Shown here piece after piece: positions 1,692 to 20,204 of a DNA stretch of 25,324 bases; position 1 is the first letter of the stretch; the number at the start of each line of letters is the position of its first letter. A model generated the notes under the pieces. That model was not told where the DNA came from, made no database searches, and saw nothing but the letters and a program-made list of their open reading frames with translations. This DNA is from a phage. The DNA lies in NCBI GenBank assembly GCA_015694865.1, contig GCA_015694865.1_3933.1; one strand, written 5' to 3'. The position numbers and the translations under genes were made by a program.

Positions 1692-2291
1692 TTATTTTAC
1701 CCCTTTGGAGTCTACATCTAGATGGATAGTATATTCTGGTGGCTCTTGTCCTTCTTCATAAACCAACTCACCATCAACAATGACACGCTCAATAATACTT
1801 CCACGTTCATCTTTCAGGACTGAATTTTTTACAAGAGTTACAACAAGAGGCGCAGAATTTTCGAAATCTGTATTGAGATAAGTGTAGTCATTTGGGATGG
1901 CTCCAGTGTCTAGTACTGTAGCTCCTGTCTCTTCAAGAATTAAATCCCTGACTGAACTCATCTCTAATCGTTGTTTAAGCTCAAGCATAATACTGTGAGC
2001 ACCTTTACCATTCACCGTAATTAATACTGGAATCTGAAAAGCAATTCTGTAGCAAACTACATCATCCTCAACAAACTTATCAAGAACCCAACCATAAGGT
2101 GTTGCAGCATCTTGACAATATACGGTAATAAATGGCTGGTCAGGTTTTAAACCTTTGTCATTTGAGTTATCAGAAGGGTAAGCTCTAATTACATTCGGTC
2201 TATTATTTTTATCACGAGCTAGTCTGTGACCAATAACATCCACTAAGGTTCTAACTAGACCTTTTTCAAGTTCTGCTGTTTCTAACTGCAT
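1692..2291 (-). CDS. hypothetical virion protein (head-tail/neck module)
   Basis: 199 aa ORF in the structural operon; start overlaps the upstream ORF end. Confidence 0.55.
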   Translation of the reverse strand: MQLETAELEKGLVRTLVDVIGHRLARDKNNRPNVIRAYPSDNSNDKGLKPDQPFITVYCQDAATPYGWVLDKFVEDDVVCYRIAFQIPVLITVNGKGAHSIMLELKQRLEMSSVRDLILEETGATVLDTGAIPNDYTYLNTDFENSAPLVVTLVKNSVLKDERGSIIERVIVDGELVYEEGQEPPEYTIHLDVDSKGVK

Positions 2292-2667
2292 TCATTTTAT
2301 CCCTTCTAATAATGATATATTCATAATGGGACGTATGGGCTAATTGCTGTGACCAATCCATAGTCATAAATACTTCATACTCATGACCATCAATCATAAC
2401 AATATCAGACTCATTCCACTCTACATCATCTGAAGTTCTAAGTTTATATGTGGTATACAGGATTCTTGTATCGGTAAGCCTAATACCTTCCGGTAAAGCA
2501 ATCTGTGTACCATTCTTTACAGAACCTTTGATATATGGCTGGATATTACCTTTGCAGTTAACCTCTACAATATCTTGCGAAGCTACCCAATCACCATCAT
2601 CATTATAATAACCGTCTTCAGAGACTTTACGCTTTACTACAAAGCTGTGTCTGTTTAAGAGTCTCAT
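2266..2667 (-). CDS. hypothetical virion protein
   Basis: 133 aa ORF; 4-nt overlap with the upstream ORF, typical translational coupling. Confidence 0.5.
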   Translation of the reverse strand: MRLLNRHSFVVKRKVSEDGYYNDDGDWVASQDIVEVNCKGNIQPYIKGSVKNGTQIALPEGIRLTDTRILYTTYKLRTSDDVEWNESDIVMIDGHEYEVFMTMDWSQQLAHTSHYEYIIIRRDKMNAVRNSRT

Positions 2668-3146
2668 TTTTTAATACCCTTCTTAGTAGAAATTTTATAA
2701 GCAAGGTTATCTCTTAAGTCACCTGTCTCAACAAGAGGTGCGTTAAAGCCTTTTTTCTTGACTGTGGAAGGTGCGTTAGGAGGGAGGATAGCAGAATTAC
2801 CAAAACCCCTTTTAATTACCTTTTGAGTATTCTTTGCAAATGCTTCTAAGGTATTTGAAGGGTCTGTGTTGAGACTGCTAAGTTGCTTATATAGATTCTT
2901 CTTAGTCTGCTCTAACAAGGTCTGTTTGTTTAGCATCATAGTGATTTCAAACAACCTACGATATACTTTACCAGAAGCTGAAGGAACCCCAATAACTTCT
3001 TGTAAATACATTAAAGCAGGATAAGAAAAACCAGAGCTATGTTGACCTTGTTCTTGAAAATACCCAACTTGAGCATTAGCCGTCTGCAAGTTCTTCATAG
3101 CCCCGACTAATTTTGCTCTAGCGGGGTGAATAACCCTTTTAACCAT
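2664..3146 (-). CDS. hypothetical head-tail joining/minor structural protein
   Basis: 160 aa ORF in a co-oriented operon; no specific motif recognised. Confidence 0.5.
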   Translation of the reverse strand: MVKRVIHPARAKLVGAMKNLQTANAQVGYFQEQGQHSSGFSYPALMYLQEVIGVPSASGKVYRRLFEITMMLNKQTLLEQTKKNLYKQLSSLNTDPSNTLEAFAKNTQKVIKRGFGNSAILPPNAPSTVKKKGFNAPLVETGDLRDNLAYKISTKKGIKK

Positions 3147-3595
3147 TATTCATCTCGCTCGATAATAAATACGCCATTAACACGGTTGCAGTAATCTCTG
3201 CCTTCGTATCTGGCAGCATCACCATATTCTGTGTATTTCTTGACAGAGCAAGGATTTTGACGACGCATGTCAATATCACACTGATTAATACCACCTGCAT
3301 AGGGTAGTCCTGAAACAGAGCTTTTAACAAGGTCGTCATAAACAGCTTTCAGAGACTTGAATCTGGAAGAGTTACGTAAATAAACACCACCAACCTTCTC
3401 ATCTCCCATCTTGGCTACTTGAAAGAGTAAATATTTAAGAGCTTTGATGGCTGCTTTCTTTTCATCCTTTCCAGATTCTAGATAGAACCACTCTAGCACA
3501 GACTGTTCAATAAGAATTTCGTCATTATTGGTGTCTGTGCAGAGGATTCTTACTCTATCAAGAGGGTTATTGGCTGGGTCGCCTGTATAACACAT
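3146..3595 (-). CDS. hypothetical virion protein
   Basis: 149 aa ORF immediately downstream of the major capsid gene. Confidence 0.5.
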   Translation of the reverse strand: MCYTGDPANNPLDRVRILCTDTNNDEILIEQSVLEWFYLESGKDEKKAAIKALKYLLFQVAKMGDEKVGGVYLRNSSRFKSLKAVYDDLVKSSVSGLPYAGGINQCDIDMRRQNPCSVKKYTEYGDAARYEGRDYCNRVNGVFIIERDE

Positions 3596-3616
3596 TAATA
3601 ACCCTCCTTAAGAATA

Positions 3617-4720
3617 TTAGTTTTGAGCGTCAGCACGAACATCTACCAGCAACTGAGGACGAGTACAGTATGGCAGCATGTAAGAGTGAGCTTCGAAGTC
3701 AATACCTTCGTCACGGTCTTTTTCGTATTCGAATACGTATAGTTCCTGACCAAGTGTATTTGCATAACCCATCTTAGGACATGGGCCGTATGCAACTTCA
3801 AAGATGTTGTTAGCTTCACCCAACATAGATACGTTAGGGAAAGCGTGCCCTACACCAACGCCTACACCAGCATCATCAATGTTAACCAGAGTGTGAACCT
3901 TACCACGCTTGTCTTTAAACTTACCGTTATACTGGACAAACTTAACGCCACCGTAGTAGAAAGTGTTCATGTGAGCCTGAACGCCGTCGGCACCACCAGT
4001 TCTCAGAGAACCAGTAATCTGTTGCCAAGCCAGTGGAGTCTGCTGTGCAAGATAAGCGTCACGAATCTTAGGATGCTTAACCAGTTTGCTGAAGAATACA
4101 CGGTCAACAACTACGTGAATCTCTTCACCGTTGATTACAGTGCCAGTCTTAGCTTCATCTTCCATGTGCATACGCAGTTCTTCAATAGAAGCGTCGATGT
4201 CAGCATTAGGGTTGTCAAGGTCGAAGTAAATAGTCTTCTTCCTAACGTCGAACTGCTTGTACAGGTCAGCGTACAGAGTACCACGAGCATCAACAACTTT
4301 ACCCTTCAGAGCTTGCATAAACAGGAACTCACGAGTAATATCGAACTTGGTACGAATCTTCATCAGCTTCTTGGCACGTACTACAGCTTCAGTAGTCAGT
4401 TCGTTTGCAGTGCCTGGCTGACGTACACCCTGAATCTCATCAGGAGTAATGCTTTCAACTTCTTTGAAGTACATCATTGGGAAGCTGATTTGACGAACAC
4501 GCTCAGGTGCGCTAGTCTCTGCTTTACGGCTATCACGGTCTACCGCATCAAGCAAGCTAACATCCCAATCAGTCAAGTCCATAAGGAAAGTAGTTTGGGT
4601 GATTGGTGCTGAACGGAATAGACCTAAGTTGGAAATATACCCATAAGTATTTGGGATAGACTGGACTTCACCAGTCAGGTCAGCAAGGAAAAATCTGCTT
4701 TTTTCAGAATTAGTCAACAT
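3617..4720 (-). CDS. major capsid protein (lambda gpE-like family)
   Basis: 367 aa ORF following the protease and decoration-like genes; size and gene order match lambda-like head modules. Confidence 0.7.
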   Translation of the reverse strand: MLTNSEKSRFFLADLTGEVQSIPNTYGYISNLGLFRSAPITQTTFLMDLTDWDVSLLDAVDRDSRKAETSAPERVRQISFPMMYFKEVESITPDEIQGVRQPGTANELTTEAVVRAKKLMKIRTKFDITREFLFMQALKGKVVDARGTLYADLYKQFDVRKKTIYFDLDNPNADIDASIEELRMHMEDEAKTGTVINGEEIHVVVDRVFFSKLVKHPKIRDAYLAQQTPLAWQQITGSLRTGGADGVQAHMNTFYYGGVKFVQYNGKFKDKRGKVHTLVNIDDAGVGVGVGHAFPNVSMLGEANNIFEVAYGPCPKMGYANTLGQELYVFEYEKDRDEGIDFEAHSYMLPYCTRPQLLVDVRADAQN

Positions 4721-4753
4721 TGTAAAATTCTCCAGAATGTCTTATTATTGTTA

Positions 4754-5131
4754 TTACAGGCCAGTTGGTACGAAATCAATACCTTTAGCAGCAAGAGCTG
4801 TCTTGACTGCACCAGCATCAACATCTGATTTAAGAGTAAGCAGGTCTTTTAGTTCTGCGTCACGGTAAATACCAACAACTTTCAACTGACCGTGGTAAGA
4901 CAGTTGTTGGTCTGCGTAAAAGTTAACGATACATACAGAATCAGCCTGATCTTCTTCCCCTACTGCAACTTTAGTACCATCTGCTTTCAGGACTTCACCT
5001 ACACGGTATTCTATTGAAGCAACTGGAGTGTACTCTTTGCGAGAGTGACCTGTTGGGGTAACCTGTTCCCAAAGAATGATATCATTCAGAGGTTCTCTTT
5101 TAACTAAGTGAGTAAAACCTTTATATGCCAT
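4754..5131 (-). CDS. head decoration-like protein (putative)
   Basis: 125 aa ORF between protease/scaffold and major capsid genes, the position of lambda gpD-type decoration proteins; sequence similarity not verified. Confidence 0.45.
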   Translation of the reverse strand: MAYKGFTHLVKREPLNDIILWEQVTPTGHSRKEYTPVASIEYRVGEVLKADGTKVAVGEEDQADSVCIVNFYADQQLSYHGQLKVVGIYRDAELKDLLTLKSDVDAGAVKTALAAKGIDFVPTGL

Positions 5132-5142
5132 TATTGTGTTCC

Positions 5143-6489
5143 TTATTTGATAAGAGATTTTAGAGCATTCTGGAGAGCCAGTTTGCGTTGTTCAGCGGTG
5201 TCTTCGGAAGCATTCTTAGCTGGTTCTTTTTCTTCTTCAACCAAATCAGCTTCGCCGTCATTACCCATTTCTTCCATAGCATTAGAATGTTCAAGAACAG
5301 CACCAGCAGTTTCTTTCAGCTTGGTAATTTCTGATTCTTTTTCTTCCATTGCAGAAGCATGGGACGCGATAGTTTCATTAAGTTTCTGGTTAGCACCTTC
5401 CATAGCATTCATAAACAGAACGCTCAGAGGGTTATCAAGACCAGCACCTAAAATAGTCGTTGCAGCTTCTTTTGCATCAAACCCAAAAGCTTCAGCAGAA
5501 GCAGAAATCTTATTAGTCAAATCTGACAAAGCAGCTTCCTGTTCTTTAGCTTTCATTTGAGCAACCTGAAGACGCAAAGCTTCTAGTTCTTGCTTTTCTT
5601 GTTCAGTCATTTCTTCACCTGAATTGTTAACGTTTAAACTTACAGGAGCCTCTTCAGAACCTTGTAAGTAATTTAAGAAATCATCTTGAGACATGATTGA
5701 GTTAATTAAACCAAGTTCAAGAGCTTCCTGAGCAGAATAAACATTCGCCTCAGTATTCTTTACAGCTTCTTCAGAGAGTTTACGAGATTCGGCTACAAAA
5801 CCTGTAAAGGTTGCGTAGGTATCATTAATTCTCTTTTGAAGTCTTTCTTTGCTTTCTTCTGAGAGTGCTTGGAATGGTGAACCCATCCCTTTAAATTCAC
5901 CAGCTTTAATGACGTTAATTGTTACGCCATTCTTTTCAAATGCCTTAGTTAATTCCTGATGAACCATAATTACACCAATAGAACCAACATCTGCATCTGG
6001 TGATGCAATAATTTCTTCAGCAGAAGATGCAAGAGCGTATGCAGCGGAACAAGCGAACTCATCTACATAAGCAATAATTTTCTTTTGGCCTCTTGAAGCC
6101 ATAATGTGACGTGCTAATTCAAAGCAACCTGAAGCTTCACCACCACCAGAATCGATGTGCAGAACAATAGTCTTGATTGACTCATCTGCTAAAGCTTCGT
6201 CAAAGCCTCTACGCAAACCTTCATAAGAGCTTAATCCACCTGTACACATTGCATCAATGAATGTCATACGATGGGTTAAACCACCCATAATAGGGATAAT
6301 AGCAATGTCATCTTTTACTTTTAAAAGACTTCTTGCTTCACCTTTGGGTTTATCAAAGTTTACTGCTGCTTGGACATCACCCAGCAATCTGTTATTCACA
6401 TAAGTTGCTGCTGAGTGAGCTAATGATTCAGTGGCTAGTAAAGGTTGGTTGAATAATCTATCAGCAAGTCTGAAGATATTCGAACTCAT
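5143..6489 (-). CDS. prohead protease, S49 (SppA/ClpP-like) family, with C-terminal scaffold-like coiled-coil extension
   Basis: 448 aa; S49-type core (…HIDSGGGEASGCFELARHI…IAYVDEFACSAAYALAS…VGSIGVIM…) followed by an E/K/A/Q-rich helical tail. Confidence 0.8.
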   Translation of the reverse strand: MSSNIFRLADRLFNQPLLATESLAHSAATYVNNRLLGDVQAAVNFDKPKGEARSLLKVKDDIAIIPIMGGLTHRMTFIDAMCTGGLSSYEGLRRGFDEALADESIKTIVLHIDSGGGEASGCFELARHIMASRGQKKIIAYVDEFACSAAYALASSAEEIIASPDADVGSIGVIMVHQELTKAFEKNGVTINVIKAGEFKGMGSPFQALSEESKERLQKRINDTYATFTGFVAESRKLSEEAVKNTEANVYSAQEALELGLINSIMSQDDFLNYLQGSEEAPVSLNVNNSGEEMTEQEKQELEALRLQVAQMKAKEQEAALSDLTNKISASAEAFGFDAKEAATTILGAGLDNPLSVLFMNAMEGANQKLNETIASHASAMEEKESEITKLKETAGAVLEHSNAMEEMGNDGEADLVEEEKEPAKNASEDTAEQRKLALQNALKSLIK

Positions 6490-6500
6490 TTTTACTCACC

Positions 6501-6833
6501 CTATTTGTTTAAATCTACAGAGACTGAAGAGATAACATAGATACCTTCTTCAGCGAAGAATTGAGGTTTGCTAAGAGCACCAGTTGCCACGCATTTATCG
6601 TTAGCATCCCACAAGCTATAGTGTGAGACCGTTGCAGAAGCTGGAACAGTAATATTAACTGTATCTTCTGAGGCAATTAAGCCATTATCCGGTTCAGAAA
6701 AATAAATAGCCACTGGCTGAGTAACCTTATTTGCTGTAGGGTCTGCCGTTGGGTCTACATTGTGTAAAATAATAGTTGTTGGGGTTAGCGTGGCGAGGAT
6801 TTTATTCTTACCATCAATAGTTAATGTTCCCAT
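6501..6833 (-). CDS. hypothetical protein
   Basis: 110 aa ORF between portal and protease genes; T/S/V-rich, beta-rich appearance. Confidence 0.45.
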   Translation of the reverse strand: MGTLTIDGKNKILATLTPTTIILHNVDPTADPTANKVTQPVAIYFSEPDNGLIASEDTVNITVPASATVSHYSLWDANDKCVATGALSKPQFFAEEGIYVISSVSVDLNK

Positions 6834-7333
6834 TAATTAAACCTTACTTTTTGTTTAAGGACTGTTGAATGGTTACCAGATTCATCTACCACATTTACAA
6901 TCATATCATATACTTTACCTTTGACAAGTACTTTGTAATCATTTTGTGAAAAAATGTATTCAAGTCTGTTTGTTTCTTTATTAACTGTCATTGGAGATTG
7001 AAATGCAGTGTCGAGGGTAATGAAAGCGGCTTCAATGCTATTAACATTGATACGTTTATTCTCGCAGTTATATAACTTTACACCCAAAAGGCATGAACTG
7101 TCAAATGGAATTTTAACAATTTCACTACAATTTCCTGAAATAAACGGTTTTCCACTCATTGGTGCATCAAGTAACCTGCAAATAGTGAAAACGTCAGAGG
7201 TTCCACCATCACTTACATAACCTGAAAGGCTGACCCTTGAGCCAGCCCCTACAGATAATTTGTCAGTGATAATAAGAACACCTCTATACGAATGCACTCG
7301 TGTAGCATTTGAAATAGAGATAACTTCAGCCAT
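6833..7333 (-). CDS. hypothetical protein
   Basis: 166 aa ORF; ATGA-type overlap with the portal gene stop. Confidence 0.45.
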   Translation of the reverse strand: MAEVISISNATRVHSYRGVLIITDKLSVGAGSRVSLSGYVSDGGTSDVFTICRLLDAPMSGKPFISGNCSEIVKIPFDSSCLLGVKLYNCENKRINVNSIEAAFITLDTAFQSPMTVNKETNRLEYIFSQNDYKVLVKGKVYDMIVNVVDESGNHSTVLKQKVRFN

Positions 7334-12221: not shown

Positions 12222-12779
12222 TTACTTTCTCAGTGGATGAATAAAGAATGCCAACATAACTCTTTCCCTTGAGAATGCTCTTTCTTCTGGGACAACACTT
12301 TTTAGTTTCCATCCAATATAAATTCTCCAGTAAAACTGTTTACCAAAGACTTTAATTGATGGGATAAAAGCGAATAATCCCCAAGCATTACTGTTCCACA
12401 TTAGGAGATAACCTGTCTGATTATCTTCAGGGTCAGAACTTACGTTGATATTACCTTTCCACTTAGTAACATCTTTTACATCTCTTCCTAATACATGGTA
12501 AGAGAAGTTATAGGCTTTGTTTCTCCAGAGCCATCCGACTCTCTGCATGTAGACACCCAGCTTACCAATCTTTCTAATCTTAGCCCATCGTTCGATATGA
12601 CCTTCGTCACCATCAATTGGGTTGTCATATGTCTCCATCCATCTAAATCCGAAAGGTAAGTGGCCTTTCTTCTCACTGTAAAATGGAACTACGAAAGGTG
12701 CTAAGATAACTGCTAAGGTTGCTGCTAATGGTTCTAGCAAAGCTAGGAAAATCCATGAAGCATATTTTAAATATCTCAT
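12222..12779 (-). CDS. hypothetical membrane-anchored protein embedded in the tRNA array
   Basis: 185 aa ORF; N-terminal hydrophobic helix (ASWIFLALLEPLAATLAVILAPFVVPF), Trp-rich soluble part; coupled to the upstream small ORF. Confidence 0.5.
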   Translation of the reverse strand: MRYLKYASWIFLALLEPLAATLAVILAPFVVPFYSEKKGHLPFGFRWMETYDNPIDGDEGHIERWAKIRKIGKLGVYMQRVGWLWRNKAYNFSYHVLGRDVKDVTKWKGNINVSSDPEDNQTGYLLMWNSNAWGLFAFIPSIKVFGKQFYWRIYIGWKLKSVVPEERAFSRERVMLAFFIHPLRK

Positions 12780-13018
12780 CGTCTAATCCTTGTAAGGAGA
12801 TAAATGTTATTATTCGTTTCTAAACCTTCTGGTAAAACTGTCTCAAAAATAACACTCTTTAGCTGTCTACCACCAAAACAATCACGTATAAATCTTTCTA
12901 CTCTAGCGGGGTCACATAAGTACCCTACTTTTAAGAAAATGTGGTGTTCAACACCAATGACCCTGACAAACTCAATATTCTCACAGTTTTCATGTTCAAC
13001 TACTGTTAATGTTTGCAT
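12776..13018 (-). CDS. hypothetical small protein (coupled to 12222..12779)
   Basis: 80 aa ORF; its stop overlaps the start of the downstream ORF (ATGA). Confidence 0.4.
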   Translation of the reverse strand: MQTLTVVEHENCENIEFVRVIGVEHHIFLKVGYLCDPARVERFIRDCFGGRQLKSVIFETVLPEGLETNNNIYLLTRIRR

Positions 13019-13035
13019 AGTATCACCTTTTTATC

Positions 13036-13111
13036 TGGCGCAGGATAAGGGATTCGAACCCCTATTAACAGCTTCGTAGACTGTTGCTCTATCCATTTGA
13101 ACTAATCCTGC
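13036..13111 (-). tRNA. tRNA-Arg (anticodon ACG)
   Basis: 76 nt; acceptor GCAGGAT/ATCCTGC, D-stem GTTC/GAGC, anticodon loop CTACGAA, T-arm AGGGG-TTCGAAT-CCCTT, CCA encoded. Confidence 0.8.
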
Positions 13112-13116
13112 AAAAT

Positions 13117-13194
13117 TGGTGTTCCAAGACGGATTCGAACCGTCACTAATACAAGGTTTGAGCTTACATCCTCTGCCAATTGGGATACTGGAAC
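13117..13194 (-). tRNA. tRNA with Leu-type anticodon CAA but short variable region (atypical; isotype uncertain)
   Basis: 78 nt; acceptor GTTCCAG/TTGGAAC, T-arm GACGG-TTCGAAT-CCGTC, D-loop AATTGGCAGAG shared with the 12057..12135 gene, anticodon loop CTCAAAC. Confidence 0.5.
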
Positions 13195-13195
13195 A

Positions 13196-13269
13196 TGGTA
13201 CTCACTAAAGGACTTGAACCTTTTCTTCATCTTGTAAGGGTGATGTTTTACCATATAAACTAAGCGAGT
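13196..13269 (-). tRNA. tRNA-Val (anticodon TAC)
   Basis: 74 nt; acceptor ACTCGCT/AGTGAGT, D-stem GTTT/AAAC, anticodon loop CTTACAA, T-arm AAAGG-TTCAAGT-CCTTT, CCA encoded; short variable loop. Confidence 0.65.
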
Positions 13270-13364
13270 GTGAAAGAGGTCTGAAGTTGTGCCGCTAACT
13301 CAACTCCGTGGAATTTGTTACGGTCTTCAGTTGACACCAGCGGTCTTTCACTTGACCTCTGAAT

Positions 13365-13441
13365 TGGTGCTGCTCACAGGACTCGAACCCGCATTTCCAT
13401 CCTTACAAGGGATGTGTAATAGCCAATTATACGAAAGCAGC
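13365..13441 (-). tRNA. tRNA-Thr (anticodon TGT)
   Basis: 77 nt; acceptor GCTGCTT/GAGCAGC, anticodon stem CATCC/GGATG with loop CTTGTAA, T-arm GCGGG-TTCGAGT-CCTGT, CCA encoded. Confidence 0.75.
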
Positions 13442-13448
13442 ATTAATT

Positions 13449-13524
13449 TGGAGCATCCAGAGGGAATCGAACCCTCAACCTCAGTTTGGAAGACTGTAAT
13501 TTTCCCGTTTAAACTATGGATGCA
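13449..13524 (-). tRNA. tRNA-Gly (anticodon TCC)
   Basis: 76 nt; acceptor GCATCCA/TGGATGC, anticodon loop CTTCCAA, T-arm GAGGG-TTCGATT-CCCTC, CCA encoded. Confidence 0.7.
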
Positions 13525-13529
13525 CTAAT

Positions 13530-13605
13530 TGGTGGAGAAGCAGGGAATTGAACCCTGTACTTAAGTTTGCAAAACTTATGTTTTAACCATGTAAACTACA
13601 TCCCC
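13530..13605 (-). tRNA. tRNA-Ala (anticodon TGC)
   Basis: 76 nt; G3-U70 wobble pair in the acceptor stem (Ala identity element), anticodon stem TAAGT/ACTTA with loop TTTGCAA, T-arm CAGGG-TTCAATT-CCCTG, CCA encoded. Confidence 0.75.
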
Positions 13606-13611
13606 AATGTA

Positions 13612-13687
13612 TGGTACAGGTGGAGGGAATTGAACCCATCGTCTTACTGATTAAGAGTCAGCCGCATAACCATTTTGCTACACCTGC
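13612..13687 (-). tRNA. tRNA-Lys (anticodon CTT)
   Basis: 76 nt; acceptor GCAGGTG/CACCTGT, anticodon stem GCTGA/TCAGT with loop CTCTTAA, T-loop TTCAATT, CCA encoded. Confidence 0.7.
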
Positions 13688-13694
13688 ATTAATT

Positions 13695-13772
13695 TGGTAG
13701 GAGACAAGGGATTCGAACCCTCAAACACCAACTTCTAAGGATGGTAGGTTTACCAATTACCGTCAATCTCCC
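13695..13772 (-). tRNA. tRNA with Leu-type anticodon TAG but short variable region (atypical; isotype uncertain)
   Basis: 78 nt; acceptor GGGAGAT/GTCTCCT, T-arm GAGGG-TTCGAAT-CCCTT, anticodon loop CTTAGAA on stem CCATC/GTTGG; D-arm poorly paired. Confidence 0.45.
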
Positions 13773-14028
13773 ATTAAATCTTTTTAGAGAACTTCTAAGA
13801 ACCTAAGCAACAAGGTTCCACAACAAGCTGTAATAACCTTAGAAGCCCTCTAAAAAGACCTAAAAAGGTCTTTGCATAGTCTTGTTTAATCCGGTGACTA
13901 GAACCTTTGGAGAGCTTGATATTATCTCTTCTCCGTGACACCTACTAGGTGCTTTACTGTGCTTGTACGACAATACACGAGGGATACCAAAGCAACATCC
14001 GAATGAAGCTTGGCTTTAAACCTTATTA

Positions 14029-14118
14029 GGCGGTAAGTAAAGGAGTCGAACCCTCACCGTATCTCTACAGTGGCAACTGTTTTCAAGACAGTTTGGCTAC
14101 CATTAGCCGCTACCTACC
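14029..14118 (-). tRNA. tRNA-Ser (anticodon TGA), class II
   Basis: About 88 nt; acceptor GGTAGGT/ACTTACC, D-stem GGC/GCC, anticodon stem ACTGT/ACAGT with loop CTTGAAA, long variable arm, T-loop TTCGACT; only CC of CCA encoded. Confidence 0.7.
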
Positions 14119-14131
14119 CCTAATAAGACTT

Positions 14132-14214
14132 TGGCATGGGACGGAGGAGTTGAACCCCTTTGAAACGGTTTTGGAGGCCGTTGCTCATGCCTTAGAGTCT
14201 TAACATCGTCCCAT
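14132..14214 (-). tRNA. tRNA-Trp-like (anticodon CCA) with abnormally long D-region; possibly a tRNA-like ncRNA
   Basis: 83 nt; perfect 7-bp acceptor ATGGGAC/GTCCCAT, T-loop TTCAACT, anticodon arm ACGGC-CTCCAAA-ACCGT, but about 16 nt between the D-stem strands. Confidence 0.5.
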
Positions 14215-14356
14215 ATTATAATTCGAAGCTTACCGTATTATCTCAACACTGTAAAGCCCCTTCTCAGATTATTTACATGTTCTGGAAAACATGAGATACA
14301 GACCACCTCCCTACAGGAAGACCCGCTTAGGTCGTCTAAGTAATCTGCTAACTAAT

Positions 14357-14433
14357 TGGCACACCCTACAGGATTCGAACCTGTAACTAACGATTTAGAA
14401 GACCGTTGCTCTATCCAATTGAACTAAGGGTGC
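14357..14433 (-). tRNA. tRNA-Arg (anticodon TCT)
   Basis: 77 nt; acceptor GCACCCT/AGGGTGT, D-stem GTTC/GAGC, anticodon stem ACGGT/ATCGT with loop CTTCTAA, T-arm ACAGG-TTCGAAT-CCTGT, CCA encoded. Confidence 0.8.
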
Positions 14434-14636
14434 ATTAATCTTTAAAGACTCTCTTAGAAAGCCCTTAAAGATGCCCACCTTATTAATCATACCGTGGGCT
14501 AGTACGCCAAATTCTTTGATGAGGGATTGGAAGACCTCACTGGTGTTTAGCCTATCAAGCTACTGCCAGAAAAACATTGTCGTTTGCATTTATTTTAAAT
14601 TTGCAAAATAGACGCTACGCAACGAAAACTAAGGTT

Positions 14637-14665
14637 ACTATAAAGTAGTCACATCTCAATGTCAA
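14637..14665 (-). promoter_or_regulatory. sigma70-like promoter on minus strand (TTGACA-17 bp-TATAGT)
   Basis: Plus-strand tgtcaa at 14660-14665 and actata at 14637-14642 give, on the minus strand, -35 TTGACA, a 17-nt spacer and -10 TATAGT, pointing at tRNA-Arg(TCT) and downstream tRNAs. Confidence 0.55.
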
Positions 14666-14680
14666 CAACTTTATTGAAAT

Positions 14681-14756
14681 TGGTACTGGTAGGTGGAATC
14701 GAACCACCGATGTTCCCTTATCAGGGGAGTGTTATAACCTTCTTAACTATACCAGC
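14681..14756 (-). tRNA. tRNA-Ile (anticodon GAT)
   Basis: 76 nt; acceptor GCTGGTA/TACCAGT, D-stem GTTA/TAAC, anticodon loop CTGATAA, T-arm GGTGG-TTCGATT-CCACC, CCA encoded. Confidence 0.75.
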
Positions 14757-14757
14757 T

Positions 14758-14834
14758 TGGAGGTTCAGATGGGATTCGAACCCATCGCCTGTCAGATTAA
14801 AAGTCTGCCGCATCACCATTCTGCTACACTTCCA
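14758..14834 (-). tRNA. tRNA-Lys-like (anticodon TTT) with poorly paired acceptor stem (possible pseudo-tRNA)
   Basis: Paralogous in sequence to the 13612..13687 tRNA-Lys; good T-arm ATGGG-TTCGAAT-CCCAT and anticodon arm GCAGA-CTTTTAA-TCTGA, but acceptor strands GGAAGTG vs CTGAACC pair at only 3 of 7 positions. Confidence 0.45.
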
Positions 14835-14837
14835 TTA

Positions 14838-14981
14838 AATTATCTTTGTAGATAAGCTACCCAGACTTGCTTAATGTCTGTAGCGATGTGCCTTTTTGGG
14901 TTTAAATCTAGAATTTACCCTTTCACCCTTTGTGGTCGCATACTCACAGGTAAGCTTAATAACTTATCTACAAAGATAATT
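14838..14981. repeat. 19-bp perfect inverted repeat (14838-14856 / 14963-14981) flanking a 106-bp non-coding segment
   Basis: aattatctttgtagataag at 14838-14856 is the exact reverse complement of cttatctacaaagataatt at 14963-14981. Confidence 0.7.
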
Positions 14982-15030
14982 ACCAGACCGTTGTTTATCA
15001 TCTTAAGTGCTACCATTACACCAACTCGAC

Positions 15031-15080
15031 ATCTGCCGAGTGAAGGAATCGAACCTTCGCCTTTTCTTTACCGGAGAAAT
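15031..15080 (-). ncRNA. tRNA-like fragment (T-arm plus 3' acceptor strand without a pairing 5' strand)
   Basis: Reverse complement gives TTTCT-CCGGTAA-AGAAA, then GAAGG-TTCGATT-CCTTC-ACTCGGC; no complementary 5' acceptor strand or recognisable D-arm within about 80 nt upstream. Confidence 0.35.
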
Positions 15081-15120
15081 AGATTGTTTAAGTTTTGCTG
15101 AATACGGTCTTCTGCAAAAT

Positions 15121-15197
15121 TGGAGGCGGGTGCAGGAGTCGAACCTACCGATACCATGCTAATGAGACATGTGAGACGCCCTTTCTCTATACCCGCA
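15121..15197 (-). tRNA. tRNA-Met (anticodon CAT; elongator, initiator or Ile2 not distinguishable)
   Basis: 77 nt; T-arm GTAGG-TTCGACT-CCTGC, anticodon stem CATGT/GCATG with loop CTCATTA, acceptor ACCCGCC with a 1-72 T-C mismatch in the best register, CCA encoded. Confidence 0.6.
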
Positions 15198-15287
15198 ATT
15201 CTCAATGACCAGACCAAATATCTTCTTTGTCCGATTTCGTGTCAGATGAGTAGATTAAGTTTGCTGTAATTGGTCTTCTGTCAAAAC

Positions 15288-15365
15288 TGGCGTTCCAGAA
15301 GGGATTTGAACCCTCAGATATCCACTTTGAAAGAGTGGTGACTTTACCATTTTGTCTACTGGAAC
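15288..15365 (-). tRNA. tRNA-Glu (anticodon TTC)
   Basis: 78 nt; acceptor GTTCCAG/CTGGAAC, anticodon stem CCACT/AGTGG with loop CTTTCAA, T-arm GAGGG-TTCAAAT-CCCTT, CCA encoded. Confidence 0.7.
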
Positions 15366-15375
15366 ATTAATTTGT

Positions 15376-15449
15376 TCTCTGTTGGAGGACTTGAACCTCC
15401 GGCCTTACCGCCCCAAACGGAACGCTCTACCAAGCTGAGCTAAACAGAG
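15376..15449 (-). tRNA. tRNA-Pro (anticodon TGG)
   Basis: 74 nt without CCA; C1-G72 pair, D-arm TAGCTCAGCTTGGTAGAGC, anticodon loop TTTGGGG with G37, T-arm GGAGG-TTCAAGT-CCTCC. Confidence 0.75.
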
Positions 15450-15567
15450 ATAAACTTTTCAAACTCTATGTAACCACTTTAACATTATTTTTTAGTGGTT
15501 GTCAAGAACTTTTTTAAAATATTTTTCAGTATCTTAGAAAAGCTCTCATTTCGTTTCTATGTAGAAC

Positions 15568-15596
15568 ATATTAAAGGGTATCAAACACATTGTCAA
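15568..15596 (-). promoter_or_regulatory. sigma70-like promoter on minus strand (TTGACA-17 bp-TAATAT) upstream of the tRNA array
   Basis: Plus-strand tgtcaa at 15591-15596 and atatta at 15568-15573 give, on the minus strand, -35 TTGACA, a 17-nt spacer and -10 TAATAT; the -35 sits in the loop of a 9-bp inverted repeat (aaagggtat/ataccctt). Confidence 0.5.
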
Positions 15597-15614
15597 TACC
15601 CTTTTTAAAACTTT

Positions 15615-17029
15615 TTACCAGATGTAACGGTCAATCATTACTGCTTTGAGCATTACACTGATTGGGTCAAACTTCTCACCACCAAGCAGAGCTTTTAAAG
15701 TAGCTGGAGAAAAACCAGATACCATTGCTACACCGTTATCCTTAACAGACACTTCGCAAGTACCATTACGGTTTGCTAAGTACCAGAATACCAGTTGAGG
15801 CATTTCGTATCCAGCTTTTTTGTACTTACTCTGAATTGCTTCAAAGTTTGTACGACCGTTAGCTCCATCAACCTGATTGAACTCCATATCGGAGAAGATG
15901 ATAAGCTTACTTGCATGTCTTTCTTAGTCAAGTTGTTTCTCTTACCTACCTCAAGAATCCGGTCAAAAGCTGCTTGTAAGTTAGTTGAGCCATATTCAAC
16001 ATGTCGCATCACCTGACGATGACGGTTTCGTAAATCACCACTCAGTTCGATGAAGTGAGGGTTTGTTGAATAAACCATTAACTCATCCTTAAAGCAACCT
16101 GTATTGCGTTCTGCTACATACAAGGCAAGGGATACACCAATATCAAGGGCAGTGATTGAACCAAGATTCACCCAAGACATTGAGCTTGAAACATCAGTCA
16201 TACACAAGATGTTTTCACCTTCTGCCATCCAGTTTGGTAGTGCTTTCCACTGCTCATTGGCAACATCTGCATTACCATGCTTGATAGACTTAATCACATC
16301 GTATGGGTAAACAGCACCAGCGTTAATCTTAGTCTCACCTTTTGATAAGGACTCAATGTAAGCTTTGTAACGTTCTCCATCCTTACGGTTAAACAGTTTT
16401 TGGTAACGTGCAGCAGCAAGTGAAGGAGTCTTACTGTAGTCAATCTTACCAAACTCATTAGCAGAGATTTTTTGCTCAACTGTATCAGATAGTGCAGACA
16501 ACAGTGTGCGGTACTCTTTCTCACTCAAGTTGGCAAACTTGCAGAAACGTTTTACAAACTGCTTATGACGTGGTTTGACTCGTGGTAACCACTTAGCCGC
16601 CAAACCTGCTGTTGCAGGTTCTAGTAATGCTGCTTCTAGATGTTTGAAGGCATCTGTCTCGAAACGAGTACCTACGAAGATTTTGAAGTCATCAAAACGA
16701 CCAAGTTCTGCAATCTTATCCATAATGCGAAGAACCTGCGTAGGCTCTAAAACTTTGTCTTCAATCGCTTGAAGTAAAACAGTTCTGAAGGCTTTACGCT
16801 CACCCATACCTTCTCGTACATCTCGCATATGAAGCAAAATACGAACTGCAACATCAACATCCTCACGCAAAGCTTTGTAGAACAGGTCTGGTAAGATTTC
16901 TACGTTGCTACGGCTTGAACCAGCAGCTTTGTAAAAGTCTACAAGAGCAGACATTGATGAAGTATGGTTTACAGCACCATTTTCAGTTCGACCTGCATGA
17001 AGGTGCGCATGTTTAAATAATTCGCTCAT
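15615..17029 (-). CDS. Ro60-like vWA-domain protein, interrupted by an apparent frameshift near 15885-15926
   Basis: Two overlapping minus-strand ORFs (15776..17029 and 15615..15887) in different frames; MIDAS-like TDVSSSM motif in the first; the second frame reads ...HASKLIIFSDMEFNQ..., typical of the end of a vWA fold. Ro60-like (DUF2828-type) assignment is from memory. Confidence 0.6.
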
Positions 17030-17110
17030 ATTTTACTCTCTTCTCTCATTTGTTTGTTGATGTGACAGACTTTAGAGCAACTTTGTAGAGTCTGTCAACA
17101 CCTTTTAAAA

Positions 17111-17482
17111 TTATTTTTTGAGAGTCGCTACAGCAGAGAACGTTGGTTTGTTATCTGTCTGAGACTGACCACCATTATCAGGGGTCTTCTTAGTGTCTGC
17201 TGCAATCGCTTTCATCTCACCTGCTGAGTGAGTCATGATGGTTTTACCAGCCTCCATCATCGACTTCAGGTTTACATCGTCAGTCGTCAAACCGAACTCT
17301 GCAAGCTTAGCAGCATCCCTTGTAACAACCGCCTCAAACAACTTTGCAGCAAACTCAGCAGAATTATCAATGGTCAGTTGAGCTTTTACAAGTGAGCTTT
17401 TGTTACGAGAGCCTTTTGGTCTTCCAGATGGGTTTCCAGACTGGCCTTTTTTAAACTGGCCTTTGTTTGTTCTGTTTTTCAT
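17111..17482 (-). CDS. small basic protein with GNPSGRPKG motif (candidate DNA-binding protein or small terminase-like protein)
   Basis: 123 aa ORF; N-terminal K/R-rich region with GNPSGRPKG; first gene of the minus-strand operon. Confidence 0.5.
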   Translation of the reverse strand: MKNRTNKGQFKKGQSGNPSGRPKGSRNKSSLVKAQLTIDNSAEFAAKLFEAVVTRDAAKLAEFGLTTDDVNLKSMMEAGKTIMTHSAGEMKAIAADTKKTPDNGGQSQTDNKPTFSAVATLKK

Positions 17483-17657
17483 TGGTATGCCTCTTATAAG
17501 ACCTCTTAAAAGGCTTTTAAGATAAAAGATAGATATCCAGAAAGATATCTGTTTAAATAGCCTTTTTAGAGGAACCTTTTAAGTTATCTTCTAAGTATTT
17601 AGAAGCCTACACCTTGTCAAGTACTTTGTCAACAACTTTTTTAACTTGCAATAGTTC

Positions 17658-17686
17658 TTGACTTGTTGTATGGATTACTGTACCAT
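17658..17686 (+). promoter_or_regulatory. candidate sigma70-like promoter for the rightward gene block (TTGACT-17 bp-TACCAT)
   Basis: TTGACT at 17658-17663, 17-nt spacer, TACCAT at 17681-17686, about 45 nt upstream of the first plus-strand ATG; weak -10. Confidence 0.3.
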
Positions 17687-17731
17687 CTTACTTAAAGCTG
17701 TAGGTCTGCCTTGTTATACAAAGGAGACTTA

Positions 17732-17893
17732 ATGAGAAAATCAAATAAACCGAAGAAAGGTAAGAATACCAATCACTGTAAGGAATCAAAAAGGGTAGAG
17801 TTAATCTACTATTCATCCTCTGAAATTGGTCTGTACCTGTTCTTTCAAAATTACAGAAGACAAGAGGATTATCTATGTGTAGTTCCCAATTAG
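17732..17893 (+). CDS. small lysine-rich hypothetical protein
   Basis: ORF 17711..17893 trimmed to the ATG at 17732, which has an AAGGAG RBS 5 nt upstream. Confidence 0.45.
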   Translation: MRKSNKPKKGKNTNHCKESKRVELIYYSSSEIGLYLFFQNYRRQEDYLCVVPN

Positions 17894-18108
17894 AAATCGC
17901 AGATATTATAGATTTATATCAAACTGCAAAGAGTCATGGCTATATAACCTCAATTGGAAAGAATAGTCACTATGATGCTTTGACTGGAATGTATTTCAGG
18001 GCAATGGCTCAATCTAGTGAACAACACTTAATGGTTTCTTCCAGTGAGTTTACTTCGTTTCTCTATTGCAGCAAAATTATAAACCGCAGGAGAACTGAAA
18101 AATGTTAA
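17875..18108 (+). CDS. hypothetical protein
   Basis: 77 aa ORF with AAGAGG RBS upstream; overlaps the previous ORF by 19 nt. Confidence 0.45.
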   Translation: MCSSQLEIADIIDLYQTAKSHGYITSIGKNSHYDALTGMYFRAMAQSSEQHLMVSSSEFTSFLYCSKIINRRRTEKC

Positions 18109-18692
18109 CAGTAAGTTTTAATTACAATAGTGATGGCTCTGTATCAATTAATTCACCATATGCAAATGACCTGCTTAAAGAGCTAGTTAATCAGTGTGAT
18201 AGAGGTCTTCACTATGTTCAAAATTCTTTTAAACAGAAGACTATTGCTAATAACTTGATGCGTGTAACAGTAACGGCATCGAATCAAAATTATGACTTTG
18301 ATAGTGAAAGTCCGTACTCATTAGTTGCGCTTGGAGAGAGCAGCCAATTCAAACTTGTTTGCCACGACTCAGAAACATTCCTTAAGGTATTTTCAAACCT
18401 TATCCATAATAATAAGTACAGCTACGTTGATGGTAGTGTAAACTTCTATCCAGCAAATTATACATGTTTGTTGGTTGATAACATGAGAAAGAGTAAGCAA
18501 GAGCCTACAGAAATTTCATTTGATGTGAACTCTAGTCCAGACGCAGAAACAAGTAAGAACTTTGATATGAGTTACGCATTGTCGCTCAGTAAGAAATCCG
18601 AGTTCATTGATTATGTCAATGGATTTGATTTTAAGTTTGATGAGAGTATGAATCTTAAAAAACTTAAAAACCTACTTAAGACCAAAGCTTAA
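18102..18692 (+). CDS. hypothetical protein
   Basis: 196 aa ORF; GGAG RBS; start overlaps the previous stop. Confidence 0.55.
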   Translation: MLTVSFNYNSDGSVSINSPYANDLLKELVNQCDRGLHYVQNSFKQKTIANNLMRVTVTASNQNYDFDSESPYSLVALGESSQFKLVCHDSETFLKVFSNLIHNNKYSYVDGSVNFYPANYTCLLVDNMRKSKQEPTEISFDVNSSPDAETSKNFDMSYALSLSKKSEFIDYVNGFDFKFDESMNLKKLKNLLKTKA

Positions 18693-18739
18693 GTGTGAAT
18701 AGGGGCATCAGTCCCTTTAACTATTTATAAGGATATTTA

Positions 18740-19111
18740 ATGAAAGCTAAGAGTGCAAAAGACTTTTATTGCTTACTACAATCCTATATCAATTCCGTGC
18801 AAAATGGTGAAAGGTACAACCTTAATGATGTTATCCCAACACCTTTGACATGGAGACTCAGTAAATGGCCTGAAGAAGATATTACACCAACAAGCAAACA
18901 ACACACCTACAAACCTGAAATCAATATTCCAGACTCTGAGAACCTATTATATCCAATGTTCCATATTGTTGGTCTTGGGAGATTCCTTATGGATATTCAG
19001 TATGTAATTGGTAAAGGTTATAAGGTTAAAGGCATTGTTGTTGGTGATGTATCTCCACACCACAAAGGTTATTTTAGACTAAACGCACATTTAGAGGCTA
19101 AAAAGAAATGA
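18740..19111 (+). CDS. hypothetical protein, paralog of the N-terminal region of 19108..19740
   Basis: 123 aa; AAGGA RBS; shares motifs with the next ORF (W.EEDI / WPEADI, YKP, DSE..LY / SDELLY, MDIQY / MDLQY). Confidence 0.55.
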   Translation: MKAKSAKDFYCLLQSYINSVQNGERYNLNDVIPTPLTWRLSKWPEEDITPTSKQHTYKPEINIPDSENLLYPMFHIVGLGRFLMDIQYVIGKGYKVKGIVVGDVSPHHKGYFRLNAHLEAKKK

Positions 19112-19740
19112 TTAAAGCAAAGACTTACCCAGACTTTAAAGAGTTTGTGAAGGGCTTCATTGCAAACGTAAAGGTTGGTAAGAGATATGATTTTAGAACA
19201 TATCAAGAGGCTATTTTACCACTTACCTATAGTTCATATTGGCCTGAAGCTGATATTGCAGAAGTTGAGAAGTTTGACTACAAACCAGACTACAAAGTTC
19301 CATTTAGTGATGAATTGCTTTACAGTGTTGGTGCACAGATGAGAACTGCTGATTTCTTCATGGATTTGCAGTATGCAATCATCAATGGTAAAGATGTTGA
19401 CACAATTTACTGTGAATGGTTGGCAAGAGTTAAGCCGTTCTCAATGTTGAATGCTAAGTTGAAAGATGTCATCACACCACCAACAATCACTCAGCAACCA
19501 ACCAATCAAACAGTAAATGAAGGGGGTACACTTACCCTAAGCGTTATTGCAACTAATGCCACTGGTTATCAATGGAAAAAGGATGGTGAGGACATCCCTA
19601 GTGCCAATTCTGCAACTTACACCAAAGAAGGTGCAACCGCTGCTGATGCAGGAAGCTACACCTGTGTAGTTACTGGTGCAGGTGGCTCTGTAACATCTAA
19701 TGCAGCAACAGTTACTGTTAACCCAGCAGGGGAGGCATAA
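19108..19740 (+). CDS. hypothetical protein with C-terminal Ig-like domain
   Basis: 210 aa; ATGA overlap with the previous gene; C-terminus ...TLTLSVIATNATGYQWKKDGEDIPSANSATYTKEGATAADAGSYTCVVTGAGGSVTSNAATVTV... has the Y-x-C pattern of Ig-like domains. Confidence 0.6.
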   Translation: MIKAKTYPDFKEFVKGFIANVKVGKRYDFRTYQEAILPLTYSSYWPEADIAEVEKFDYKPDYKVPFSDELLYSVGAQMRTADFFMDLQYAIINGKDVDTIYCEWLARVKPFSMLNAKLKDVITPPTITQQPTNQTVNEGGTLTLSVIATNATGYQWKKDGEDIPSANSATYTKEGATAADAGSYTCVVTGAGGSVTSNAATVTVNPAGEA

Positions 19741-20204
19741 TGCAACTCTCAAGAAAAGGTTTAGAAGCTATTAAGTTCTTTGAAGGTCTTAAGCTTGAGG
19801 CTTACGAAGATTCTGCTGGAATCCCCACAATTGGGTATGGGACAATTCGTATTGGTGGGAAGCCTGTTAAGATGGGTATGAAGATTACCGCTGAACAAGC
19901 TGAACAGTATCTTCTTGCAGATGTTGAAAAGTTCGTTGCAGCAGTGAACAAAGCCATCAAGGTTCCAACTTCTCAGAATGAGTTTGATGCACTTGTAAGT
20001 GAAACATACAACATTGGTATCACAGCTATGCAGGACTCTACATTTATCAAGCGCCACAATGCTGGTAATAAGGTCGGTTGTGCAGAAGCTATGCAGTGGT
20101 GGAACAAGGTTACAGTAAAAGGTAAGAAGGTCACTTCAAACGGCCTGAAAAACAGACGTAGAATGGAAGCTGACATTTATCTTGACAGTGTATATCCAAA
20201 GTAA
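19740..20204 (+). CDS. endolysin, GH24 (T4 lysozyme-like) family
   Basis: 154 aa; N-terminal FEGLKLEAYEDSAGIPTIGYG carries the Glu…Asp…Thr catalytic arrangement; GGGGAGG RBS; terminator immediately downstream. Confidence 0.85.
   Translation: MQLSRKGLEAIKFFEGLKLEAYEDSAGIPTIGYGTIRIGGKPVKMGMKITAEQAEQYLLADVEKFVAAVNKAIKVPTSQNEFDALVSETYNIGITAMQDSTFIKRHNAGNKVGCAEAMQWWNKVTVKGKKVTSNGLKNRRRMEADIYLDSVYPK

What the first reader, a model, noticed from the sequence alone, without database searches (positions are those of the whole stretch)
15776..15926. Frameshift splitting the Ro60-like vWA gene
The 417-codon frame ends in a run of non-vWA-like residues, while a second frame overlapping it carries the expected continuation (...HASKLIIFSDMEFNQ...). 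The frames switch within roughly 15890-15926, around the sequence AAGAAAGACATGCAAGTAAGC on the coding strand. This is either a real inactivating mutation, an assembly error, or less likely a recoding event.
Basis: seen in the sequence. Interest (0 to 1): 0.5.

Follow-up and report, generated by a model that had tools for sequence, protein, structure and literature searches.

The report
One-base deletion breaks phage Ro60-like gene
A FelixO1-type phage has lost a single base from its Ro60-like RNA-binding protein gene, splitting it into two reading frames; this is an ordinary private frameshift (a recent knockout or a base-calling error), not a recoding signal.

Summary
The window is part of a Felixounavirus (FelixO1-like myovirus) genome. 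The minus-strand gene at 17029..15615 is a single 471-codon ORF (Pfam DUF2828 + DUF7788) in relatives. Its predicted fold is Ro60-like: a helical ring plus a vWA domain.

In the window one C is missing. Relatives read GAY ATG CCA AGT; the window reads GAC ATG C-A AGT, with the single C at 15913. The lost base lies in the codon of Pro373, which is invariant in a 61-protein alignment. Translation then runs 45 out-of-frame codons to a stop at 15776. The native C-terminal 98 codons sit in the -1 frame.

Re-inserting the C restores a 471-aa protein that is 98% identical to relatives. The displaced part shows almost only synonymous differences, so the lesion is very recent or not real.

It is the only frame-broken gene among about 35 compared. 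No other sequence searched carries it, except contigs assembled separately from the same read set (SRR13163199). There is no slippery sequence at the junction, and relatives are in frame, so recoding is rejected.

Real null allele (about 0.55) and read-level error (about 0.4) cannot be separated without the reads. Interest is low.

The parts
15615..17029 (-). Whole disrupted Ro60-like gene (DUF2828 + DUF7788/vWA). It is 1415 nt here and 1416 nt (471 codons plus stop) in relatives.
   Evidence: single 1416-nt CDS in relatives; Pfam; re-inserting one C gives a 471-aa protein, 98-98.5% identical.
15913..15914 (-). Deletion site. Coding strand reads ATG C|A AGT where relatives read ATG CCA AGT. 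One C of the Pro373 codon is missing, leaving a single C at 15913.
   Evidence: the same 1-nt gap against 6 relatives; P373 invariant in 61 homologs.
15776..17029 (-). 417-codon ORF as it now reads: 372 native residues, then 45 out-of-frame residues, then TAG.
15779..15913 (-). Out-of-frame tail (codons 373-417, QVSLSSSPIWSS...NWYSGT). It has no homology to any family member.
   Evidence: coverage stops at ~90%; tblastn HSP ends at residue ~376.
15615..15911 (-). Displaced native C-terminal coding segment (residues 374-471 plus stop) in the -1 frame. It encodes strands beta4-beta6 of the vWA fold and the invariant S380-D381.
   Evidence: DUF7788 positions 107-189, E 1e-25; residues 374-471 match at 99-100% in a different frame.
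15615..15887 (-). 90-codon ATG-initiated ORF, the only start codon available in the second frame. It begins at M382, after S380-D381, and has no Shine-Dalgarno-like sequence upstream (CATCTTCTCCGATATG).
15924..15926 (-). TAA in the second frame. It marks the upstream limit of the two-frame overlap and was created by a private CAG->AAG (Q->K) substitution.
15815..15821 (-). A_AAA_AAG heptamer, in register with the out-of-frame tail. It could return some ribosomes to the native frame by a -1 slip, but only about 31 codons after the lesion and past the MIDAS residues. It is an ordinary Lys-Lys coding sequence in relatives.
17069..17098 (-). Promoter-like site (TTGACA-18-TAAAGT) upstream of the gene's ATG at 17029.
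   Evidence: a similar promoter is annotated in phage ASO1A.
15573..15604 (-). Terminator-like hairpin just after the native stop codon. It overlaps a promoter-like site for the downstream tRNA array.

Best explanation
A genuine, very recent single-base deletion has inactivated a non-essential accessory gene of a Felixounavirus. One C of the CCA codon for invariant Pro373 is gone (coding strand, window 15913). The gene encodes a Ro60-like RNA-binding protein: a helical DUF2828 ring plus a DUF7788 vWA domain.

Shown: the deletion itself; its position in the middle of the vWA domain; the resulting product of 372 native and 45 nonsense residues; and the fact that residues 373-381 (PSKLIIFSD, strand beta4 plus the last MIDAS aspartate) are encoded by neither the 417-aa ORF nor the 90-aa downstream ORF.

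Inferred: the truncated protein lacks three of the six core vWA strands and is non-functional; the phage tolerates the loss; and the deletion is in the phage DNA rather than only in the reads.
For: The 1-nt gap is the same against six relatives. Repair gives a 471-aa protein 98-98.5% identical to them.

The site is a CC dinucleotide, not a homopolymer run.

It is the only frame break among ~35 genes compared across the 25-kb window, so the assembly is not generally indel-prone.

Logan contigs built separately from run SRR13163199 are 100% identical to the window over 7254 and 4948 nt. One of them (L008) spans the lesion and carries the deletion. The window spans more than one of these contigs, so it comes from a different assembly.

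The same genome has two further private deletions within 1.2 kb, in the adjacent tRNA array. None of the 12 best relatives listed shares them, so this lineage is really losing accessory sequence here.

The gene has been frameshifted independently elsewhere. Phage Barry has a 244-aa product whose frame changes after ...TVEQK.

Invariant D279-x-S281-x-S283, T349 and S380-D381 and the predicted strand order show what is lost.
Against: The displaced C-terminal 99 codons show no decay: 2-10 synonymous against 0-1 non-synonymous differences to relatives. An artefact would look the same.

The deletion was found nowhere else. No phage record matched a 71-nt probe across the site at 100%. The exact deletion-bearing pattern found nothing in IMG/VR, JGI metagenomes or GTDB genomes. 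The gene region has no match at all in complete E. coli genomes.

Both assemblies that carry it appear to come from one read set, so a systematic read-level error is not excluded. The sequencing platform and the reads could not be inspected.
Confidence: 0.55

Rival explanations
1. Read-level or consensus error: the phage actually has the intact 471-codon gene, and one C of CC was dropped during base-calling or consensus building.
For: The deletion is unique among more than 250 close relatives and absent from every collection searched. The downstream frame is perfectly preserved, with 0-1 non-synonymous changes. The lost base sits in an invariant codon of a gene that is uninterrupted in all 60 sampled phage homologs.
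Against: It is not in a homopolymer. No other gene of ~35 shows a frame break. A separate k-mer-based assembly of the run gives the identical sequence through the site.
Confidence: 0.4
2. Programmed recoding (-1 ribosomal frameshift or transcriptional slippage), or a functional two-subunit split, that still yields a working Ro60-like protein.
For: The second frame is -1 relative to the first. An A_AAA_AAG heptamer lies in register in the out-of-frame tail at 15821-15815, so a minor fused product is conceivable.
Against: There is no X_XXY_YYZ heptamer and no run of 5 or more identical bases between the TAA at 15926-15924 and the conserved IIFSD motif. The heptamer at 15821 is about 31 codons too late, so a slip there would replace beta4 and the MIDAS S380-D381 with nonsense. 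Every relative examined at this site is in frame with CCA, and all 60 sampled phage homologs are uninterrupted. The 90-aa ORF has no ribosome-binding site and starts after D381.
Confidence: 0.03

Closest known systems
Felixounavirus 'RNA-binding protein' / 'vWFA protein' / 'DUF2828 family protein' (e.g. VpaE1 YP_009147314.1, ORF045; wV8 gp047)
   Same: Same locus and synteny: the DUF5681 gene upstream and the tRNA array downstream. DNA identity is 96-98%, and the repaired product is 98-98.5% identical.
   Different: The window lacks one C in the Pro373 codon, so the gene is split. All relatives examined have a single 1416-nt CDS.
Ro60 / Rsr (TROVE) RNA-binding proteins, including the Thermus phage phiLo Ro60 (PDB 9l5y; PMC12135203) and mycobacteriophage 'Ro-like RNA binding protein'
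   Same: The predicted full-length fold matches Ro60 structures: the top 12 PDB hits, E 4e-8 to 1e-6, TM 0.48-0.66 normalised to the query. It has a helical ring plus a C-terminal vWA domain with the DxSxS...T...D MIDAS pattern. Mycobacteriophage Ro-like proteins are detectable homologs at 30-34% identity.
   Different: Only 11-16% identity to solved Ro60 structures. No Pfam TROVE hit and no PDB sequence hit. No Y-RNA family match next to the gene. RNA binding has not been tested for this subfamily.
Independent frameshift allele of the same gene in Escherichia phage Barry (P0029, 244 aa)
   Same: The same gene is broken by a frame change in an otherwise intact Felixounavirus genome.
   Different: The site is different: after ...TVEQK, about codon 187, in the helical domain. 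Comparison with the window's coding sequence suggests loss of one A from an A-run, but the Barry DNA was not fetched.
dnaX-type -1 programmed frameshifting (A_AAA_AAG)
   Same: An identical heptamer is present in the overlap.
   Different: It is not at the junction, not conserved as a two-frame arrangement, and cannot restore the missing conserved segment.

Membership tests
Pfam DUF2828 (PF11443) + DUF7788 (PF25043) phage/eukaryote family | Both Pfam models matched above their gathering scores | tested here: met
   DUF2828 scores 101.5 bits (cut-off 29). DUF7788 is split: 45.8 bits in the 417-aa ORF (profile positions 3-104) and 90.5 bits in the second frame (positions 107-189). The intact VpaE1 protein scores 149.3 bits in one stretch.
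Ro60/Rsr (TROVE) proteins | Ring of helical repeats closed by a C-terminal vWA domain (fold level) | tested here: met
   The model of intact homolog P0001 has pLDDT 89.1 and pTM 0.88. Its 12 best PDB matches are all Ro60, Rsr or TROVE structures (2i91_A: E 4.4e-8, TMq 0.66); isolated vWA domains follow.
Ro60/Rsr (TROVE) proteins | Sequence-level match to the TROVE model or to solved Ro60 sequences | tested here: not met
   no TROVE hit at E<=0.01; no PDB chain at E<=1; no NCBIfam model.
Ro60/Rsr (TROVE) proteins | Partner Y RNA encoded nearby | tested here: not met
   Rfam finds only tRNAs in the window and nothing credible in the 165-nt spacer after the gene. A divergent, uncurated Y RNA cannot be excluded.
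Ro60/Rsr (TROVE) proteins | Binds misfolded RNA or Y RNA | not testable with these tools
   This is a biochemical property. The RefSeq name 'RNA-binding protein' is an annotation, not a test.
vWA domain with MIDAS | DxSxS ... T ... D metal-site residues in one polypeptide | tested here: not met
   D279, S281, S283, T349 and S380-D381 are invariant in 61 homologs. In the window, S380-D381 lie after the deletion and before M382, so neither ORF encodes them.
Programmed -1 ribosomal frameshift | Slippery X_XXY_YYZ heptamer at the frame junction | tested here: not met
   There is none between 15923 and the IIFSD motif. The only heptamer (15821) is about 31 codons downstream.
Programmed -1 ribosomal frameshift | Two-frame arrangement conserved in relatives | tested here: not met
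   The 25 relatives listed for the 71-nt probe all span one extra base at this site, and all 60 sampled homologs are uninterrupted.
Frameshift pseudogene / null allele | Indel not divisible by three relative to intact orthologs, with a premature stop | tested here: met
   A 1-nt deletion leads to a stop 45 codons later.
Frameshift pseudogene / null allele | The lesion is present in the DNA, supported at read level | not testable with these tools
   The support is only indirect: the same sequence appears in Logan contigs of SRR13163199.

The most novel reading that the evidence does not exclude
The frameshift is real and is one of several linked losses in this phage. The Ro60-like gene and five neighbouring tRNA genes have been hit by three private deletions within about 1.2 kb. 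Asp, Tyr and Asn are deleted, and Met and Lys(UUU) are fused into a broken hybrid. This would mean the phage Ro60-like protein works together with the phage tRNA array (for example tRNA quality control or repair) and becomes dispensable when the array shrinks.
Probability: 0.08. Interest if true: 0.45.

Novelty: already known. Interest (0 to 1): 0.1.

Why it matters
It matters mostly for annotation. The two ORFs should be annotated as one disrupted gene (a pseudogene or a sequencing-error flag), not as two hypothetical proteins. Nothing here suggests recoding.

If the deletion is real, this phage is a natural knockout of the Felixounavirus Ro60-like gene. It would show that the gene is dispensable for propagation. 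It would also offer a convenient isogenic comparison for working out what phage Ro60-like proteins do, which is still unknown outside one Thermus phage structure (PMC12135203).

Tried and rejected
- PDB sequence search with the intact homolog: no hit at E<=1.
- NCBIfam: no model matched.
- Exact search for the deletion-bearing 25-mer (two degenerate positions): zero hits in IMG/VR, JGI metagenomes and GTDB genomes.
- E. coli complete genomes: no match to the gene region.
- Literature search for the run accession SRR13163199: nothing found.
- Literature on DUF2828: only incidental plant mentions.
- Exact look-up of the window's tail-sheath protein: not on record.
- Rfam at gathering threshold over the window, and at E<=10 over the spacer after the gene: no Y RNA, only tRNAs and noise.
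- Recoding: considered and rejected for lack of a slippery site at the junction and lack of conservation.
- Functional two-piece protein: considered and rejected, because residues 373-381 are encoded by neither ORF and the second ORF has no ribosome-binding site.
- Generally error-prone assembly: considered and rejected, because no other gene is frame-broken.

Full report
**What the window is.** The 25.3-kb window is a segment of a Felixounavirus (FelixO1-like myovirus) genome. It is 95-98% identical to Salmonella phage FSL SP-012 and Escherichia phages ASO1A and VpaE1, among others. It runs from tail and head structural genes through the terminase, an array of 22 tRNA genes and the gene in question, to early genes on the other strand.

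**Checking the observation.**
- On the minus strand there is a 417-codon ORF at 17029..15776.
- A second frame overlaps it and reads ...*ERHASKLIIFSDMEFNQVDG... down to a stop at 15615.
- Pfam finds DUF2828 (PF11443) and the first half of DUF7788 (PF25043, profile positions 3-104) in the first frame.
- The second half of DUF7788 (positions 107-189, E 1e-25) lies in the second frame. The intact VpaE1 protein matches DUF7788 positions 3-189 in one piece.

**Locating the lesion.**
- Relatives annotate one 1416-nt CDS of 471 codons at this locus. The window has 1415 nt between the same start and stop.
- DNA alignment shows a single 1-nt gap. Relatives read GAY ATG CCA AGT AAG CTT; the window reads GAC ATG C-A AGT AAG CTT, with the remaining C at window 15913 on the coding strand.
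- Re-inserting one C gives an open 471-codon frame whose product is 97.7-98.5% identical to six relatives.
- The affected codon encodes Pro373, which is invariant in an alignment of 61 homologs down to 40% identity.

**Consequence for the protein.**
- An AlphaFold model of the intact homolog P0001 (97% identical; pLDDT 89.1, pTM 0.88) has a helical N-terminal part. A Rossmann-like vWA domain begins at strand 274-279.
- Invariant D279-x-S281-x-S283, T349 and S380-D381 form the MIDAS pattern.
- The deletion falls just before strand 375-380.
- The window's product would keep 372 native residues and add 45 unrelated ones. It would lack three of the six core strands and the last MIDAS residues.
- The only start codon in the second frame is M382. 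It has no Shine-Dalgarno-like sequence upstream.
- Residues 373-381 (PSKLIIFSD) are therefore encoded by neither ORF. A functional two-piece protein is not credible.

**Is it Ro60-like?**
- By fold, yes. The 12 best PDB matches of the model are all Ro60, Rsr or TROVE structures, including Xenopus Ro60 (2i91_A, E 4.4e-8, TM 0.66 normalised to the query) and the Thermus phage phiLo Ro60. Isolated vWA domains come only after these.
- By sequence models, no. There is no Pfam TROVE hit, no PDB sequence hit at E<=1 and no NCBIfam model.
- The family is widespread in large phages. tblastn finds it in 692 phage records, including mycobacteriophage genes annotated 'Ro-like RNA binding protein'.
- Phage ROT/TROVE proteins have been noted before in the context of RNA repair (PMC7824862). 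One phage Ro60 has been solved (PMC12135203).
- No Y-RNA family was detected near the gene.

**Is the two-frame layout shared or programmed?**
- It is not shared. No phage record matched a 71-nt probe across the site at 100% identity. All 25 rows listed span 72 nt, one base more than the probe.
- The exact deletion-bearing pattern is absent from IMG/VR, JGI metagenomes and GTDB genomes.
- The protein search returned 1795 hits. The 120 best listed are overwhelmingly about 470-490 aa with both domains.
- All 60 phage records sampled evenly down the tblastn ranking have the gene in one uninterrupted piece.
- At the junction there is no X_XXY_YYZ heptamer and no homopolymer run.
- The only slippery heptamer in the 145-nt overlap is A_AAA_AAG at 15821-15815. 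It lies about 31 codons past the lesion and would not restore the conserved beta4/MIDAS segment. In relatives it is simply a Lys-Lys coding sequence.
- Recoding is therefore rejected.

**Real mutation or error?**

For a real mutation:
- The site is a CC dinucleotide rather than a homopolymer.
- Of about 35 annotated genes of VpaE1 and FSL SP-012 compared with the window by tblastn, this is the only one that changes frame. Other indels are intergenic, compensating pairs in divergent stretches, or multiples of three.
- The exact 417-aa product is on record on a Logan contig of run SRR13163199. That contig is 100% identical to window 12776-20029. A second Logan contig of the same run equals window 1965-6912.
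- The window spans several Logan contigs, so it comes from a different assembly. The deletion is thus not specific to one assembler.
- The same genome carries two other private deletions in the adjacent tRNA array, which the Logan contig also reproduces.
- The gene is independently frameshifted in another Felixounavirus, phage Barry, which suggests it can be lost.

For an error:
- The deletion is unique.
- The displaced 99 codons differ from relatives by 2-10 synonymous and 0-1 non-synonymous changes.
- Both assemblies seem to derive from one read set, which I could not inspect.

I put a real recent null allele at about 0.55, a read-level error at about 0.40 and recoding at about 0.03.

**Comparison with what is known, and verdict.** This is an ordinary private frameshift in a known, widely annotated phage gene family. 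It should be annotated as one disrupted gene. If confirmed at read level, its only wider value is as a natural knockout of the Felixounavirus Ro60-like protein, whose function is untested. The neighbouring tRNA deletions raise a weak, speculative possibility of linked loss.

Noticed in passing
window 14758-14833 (-): A hybrid tRNA gene. It has the 5' acceptor strand, D-arm, anticodon (TTT) arm and T-arm of the relatives' tRNA-Lys, fused at the GGGTTCGAATCCC T-loop to the 3' end of the neighbouring tRNA-Met. About 67 nt are lost. The 3' acceptor strand (TGAACC) no longer complements the Lys 5' strand (GGAAGTG), so it is probably non-functional. ARAGORN places the anticodon at an odd position (30). 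None of the 12 best relatives listed shares the junction.
   Followed up: partly
window 15095-15122 (junction); corresponds to L005 15411-15857: A 447-nt deletion between 28-nt direct repeats removes tRNA-Asp, tRNA-Tyr and tRNA-Asn, which the 12 best relatives listed retain. Together with the hybrid tRNA, this phage has 22 tRNA genes where FSL SP-012 and VpaE1_ev108 have 26 annotated over the same stretch.
   Followed up: partly
window 19108-19740 (+): The Ig-domain 'tail protein' is 210 aa here and 294 aa in relatives. This is an in-frame loss of about one Ig-like repeat.
   Followed up: no
window 15815-15821 (-): A dnaX-type A_AAA_AAG slippery heptamer lies, by coincidence, in register with the out-of-frame tail. 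It could send a fraction of ribosomes back into the native frame, giving a near-full-length product with about 31 scrambled residues that still lacks the MIDAS S380-D381.
   Followed up: yes
L010 (Listeria phage A511), L012 (Mycobacterium phage Kingsolomon), L011 (Aeromonas phage phiAS5): In distant phages the Ro60-like homolog often sits near RNA-related genes. A511 has tRNA-Pro and tRNA-Arg upstream and an RtcB-type 'tRNA splicing ligase' 1.3 kb downstream. Kingsolomon has tRNA-Tyr 1.2 kb upstream and a 380-nt unannotated gap just downstream, where a Y RNA might lie. phiAS5 has no tRNA within 3 kb.
   Followed up: partly
P0029 (Escherichia phage Barry, cluster of 8 sequences): An independent frameshift of the same gene at about codon 187 (...TVEQK|SLLMSLVRL...). 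Comparison with the window's coding sequence suggests loss of one A from the run in CAGAAAATC, but the Barry DNA was not fetched.
   Followed up: partly
window 15573-15604 and 15568-15596 (-): The terminator-like hairpin after the Ro60-like gene overlaps a near-consensus promoter (TTGACA-17-TAATAT). A second promoter-like site at 15505-15476 precedes tRNA-Pro, so the tRNA array seems to have its own promoters rather than depending on read-through from the Ro60-like gene.
   Followed up: no
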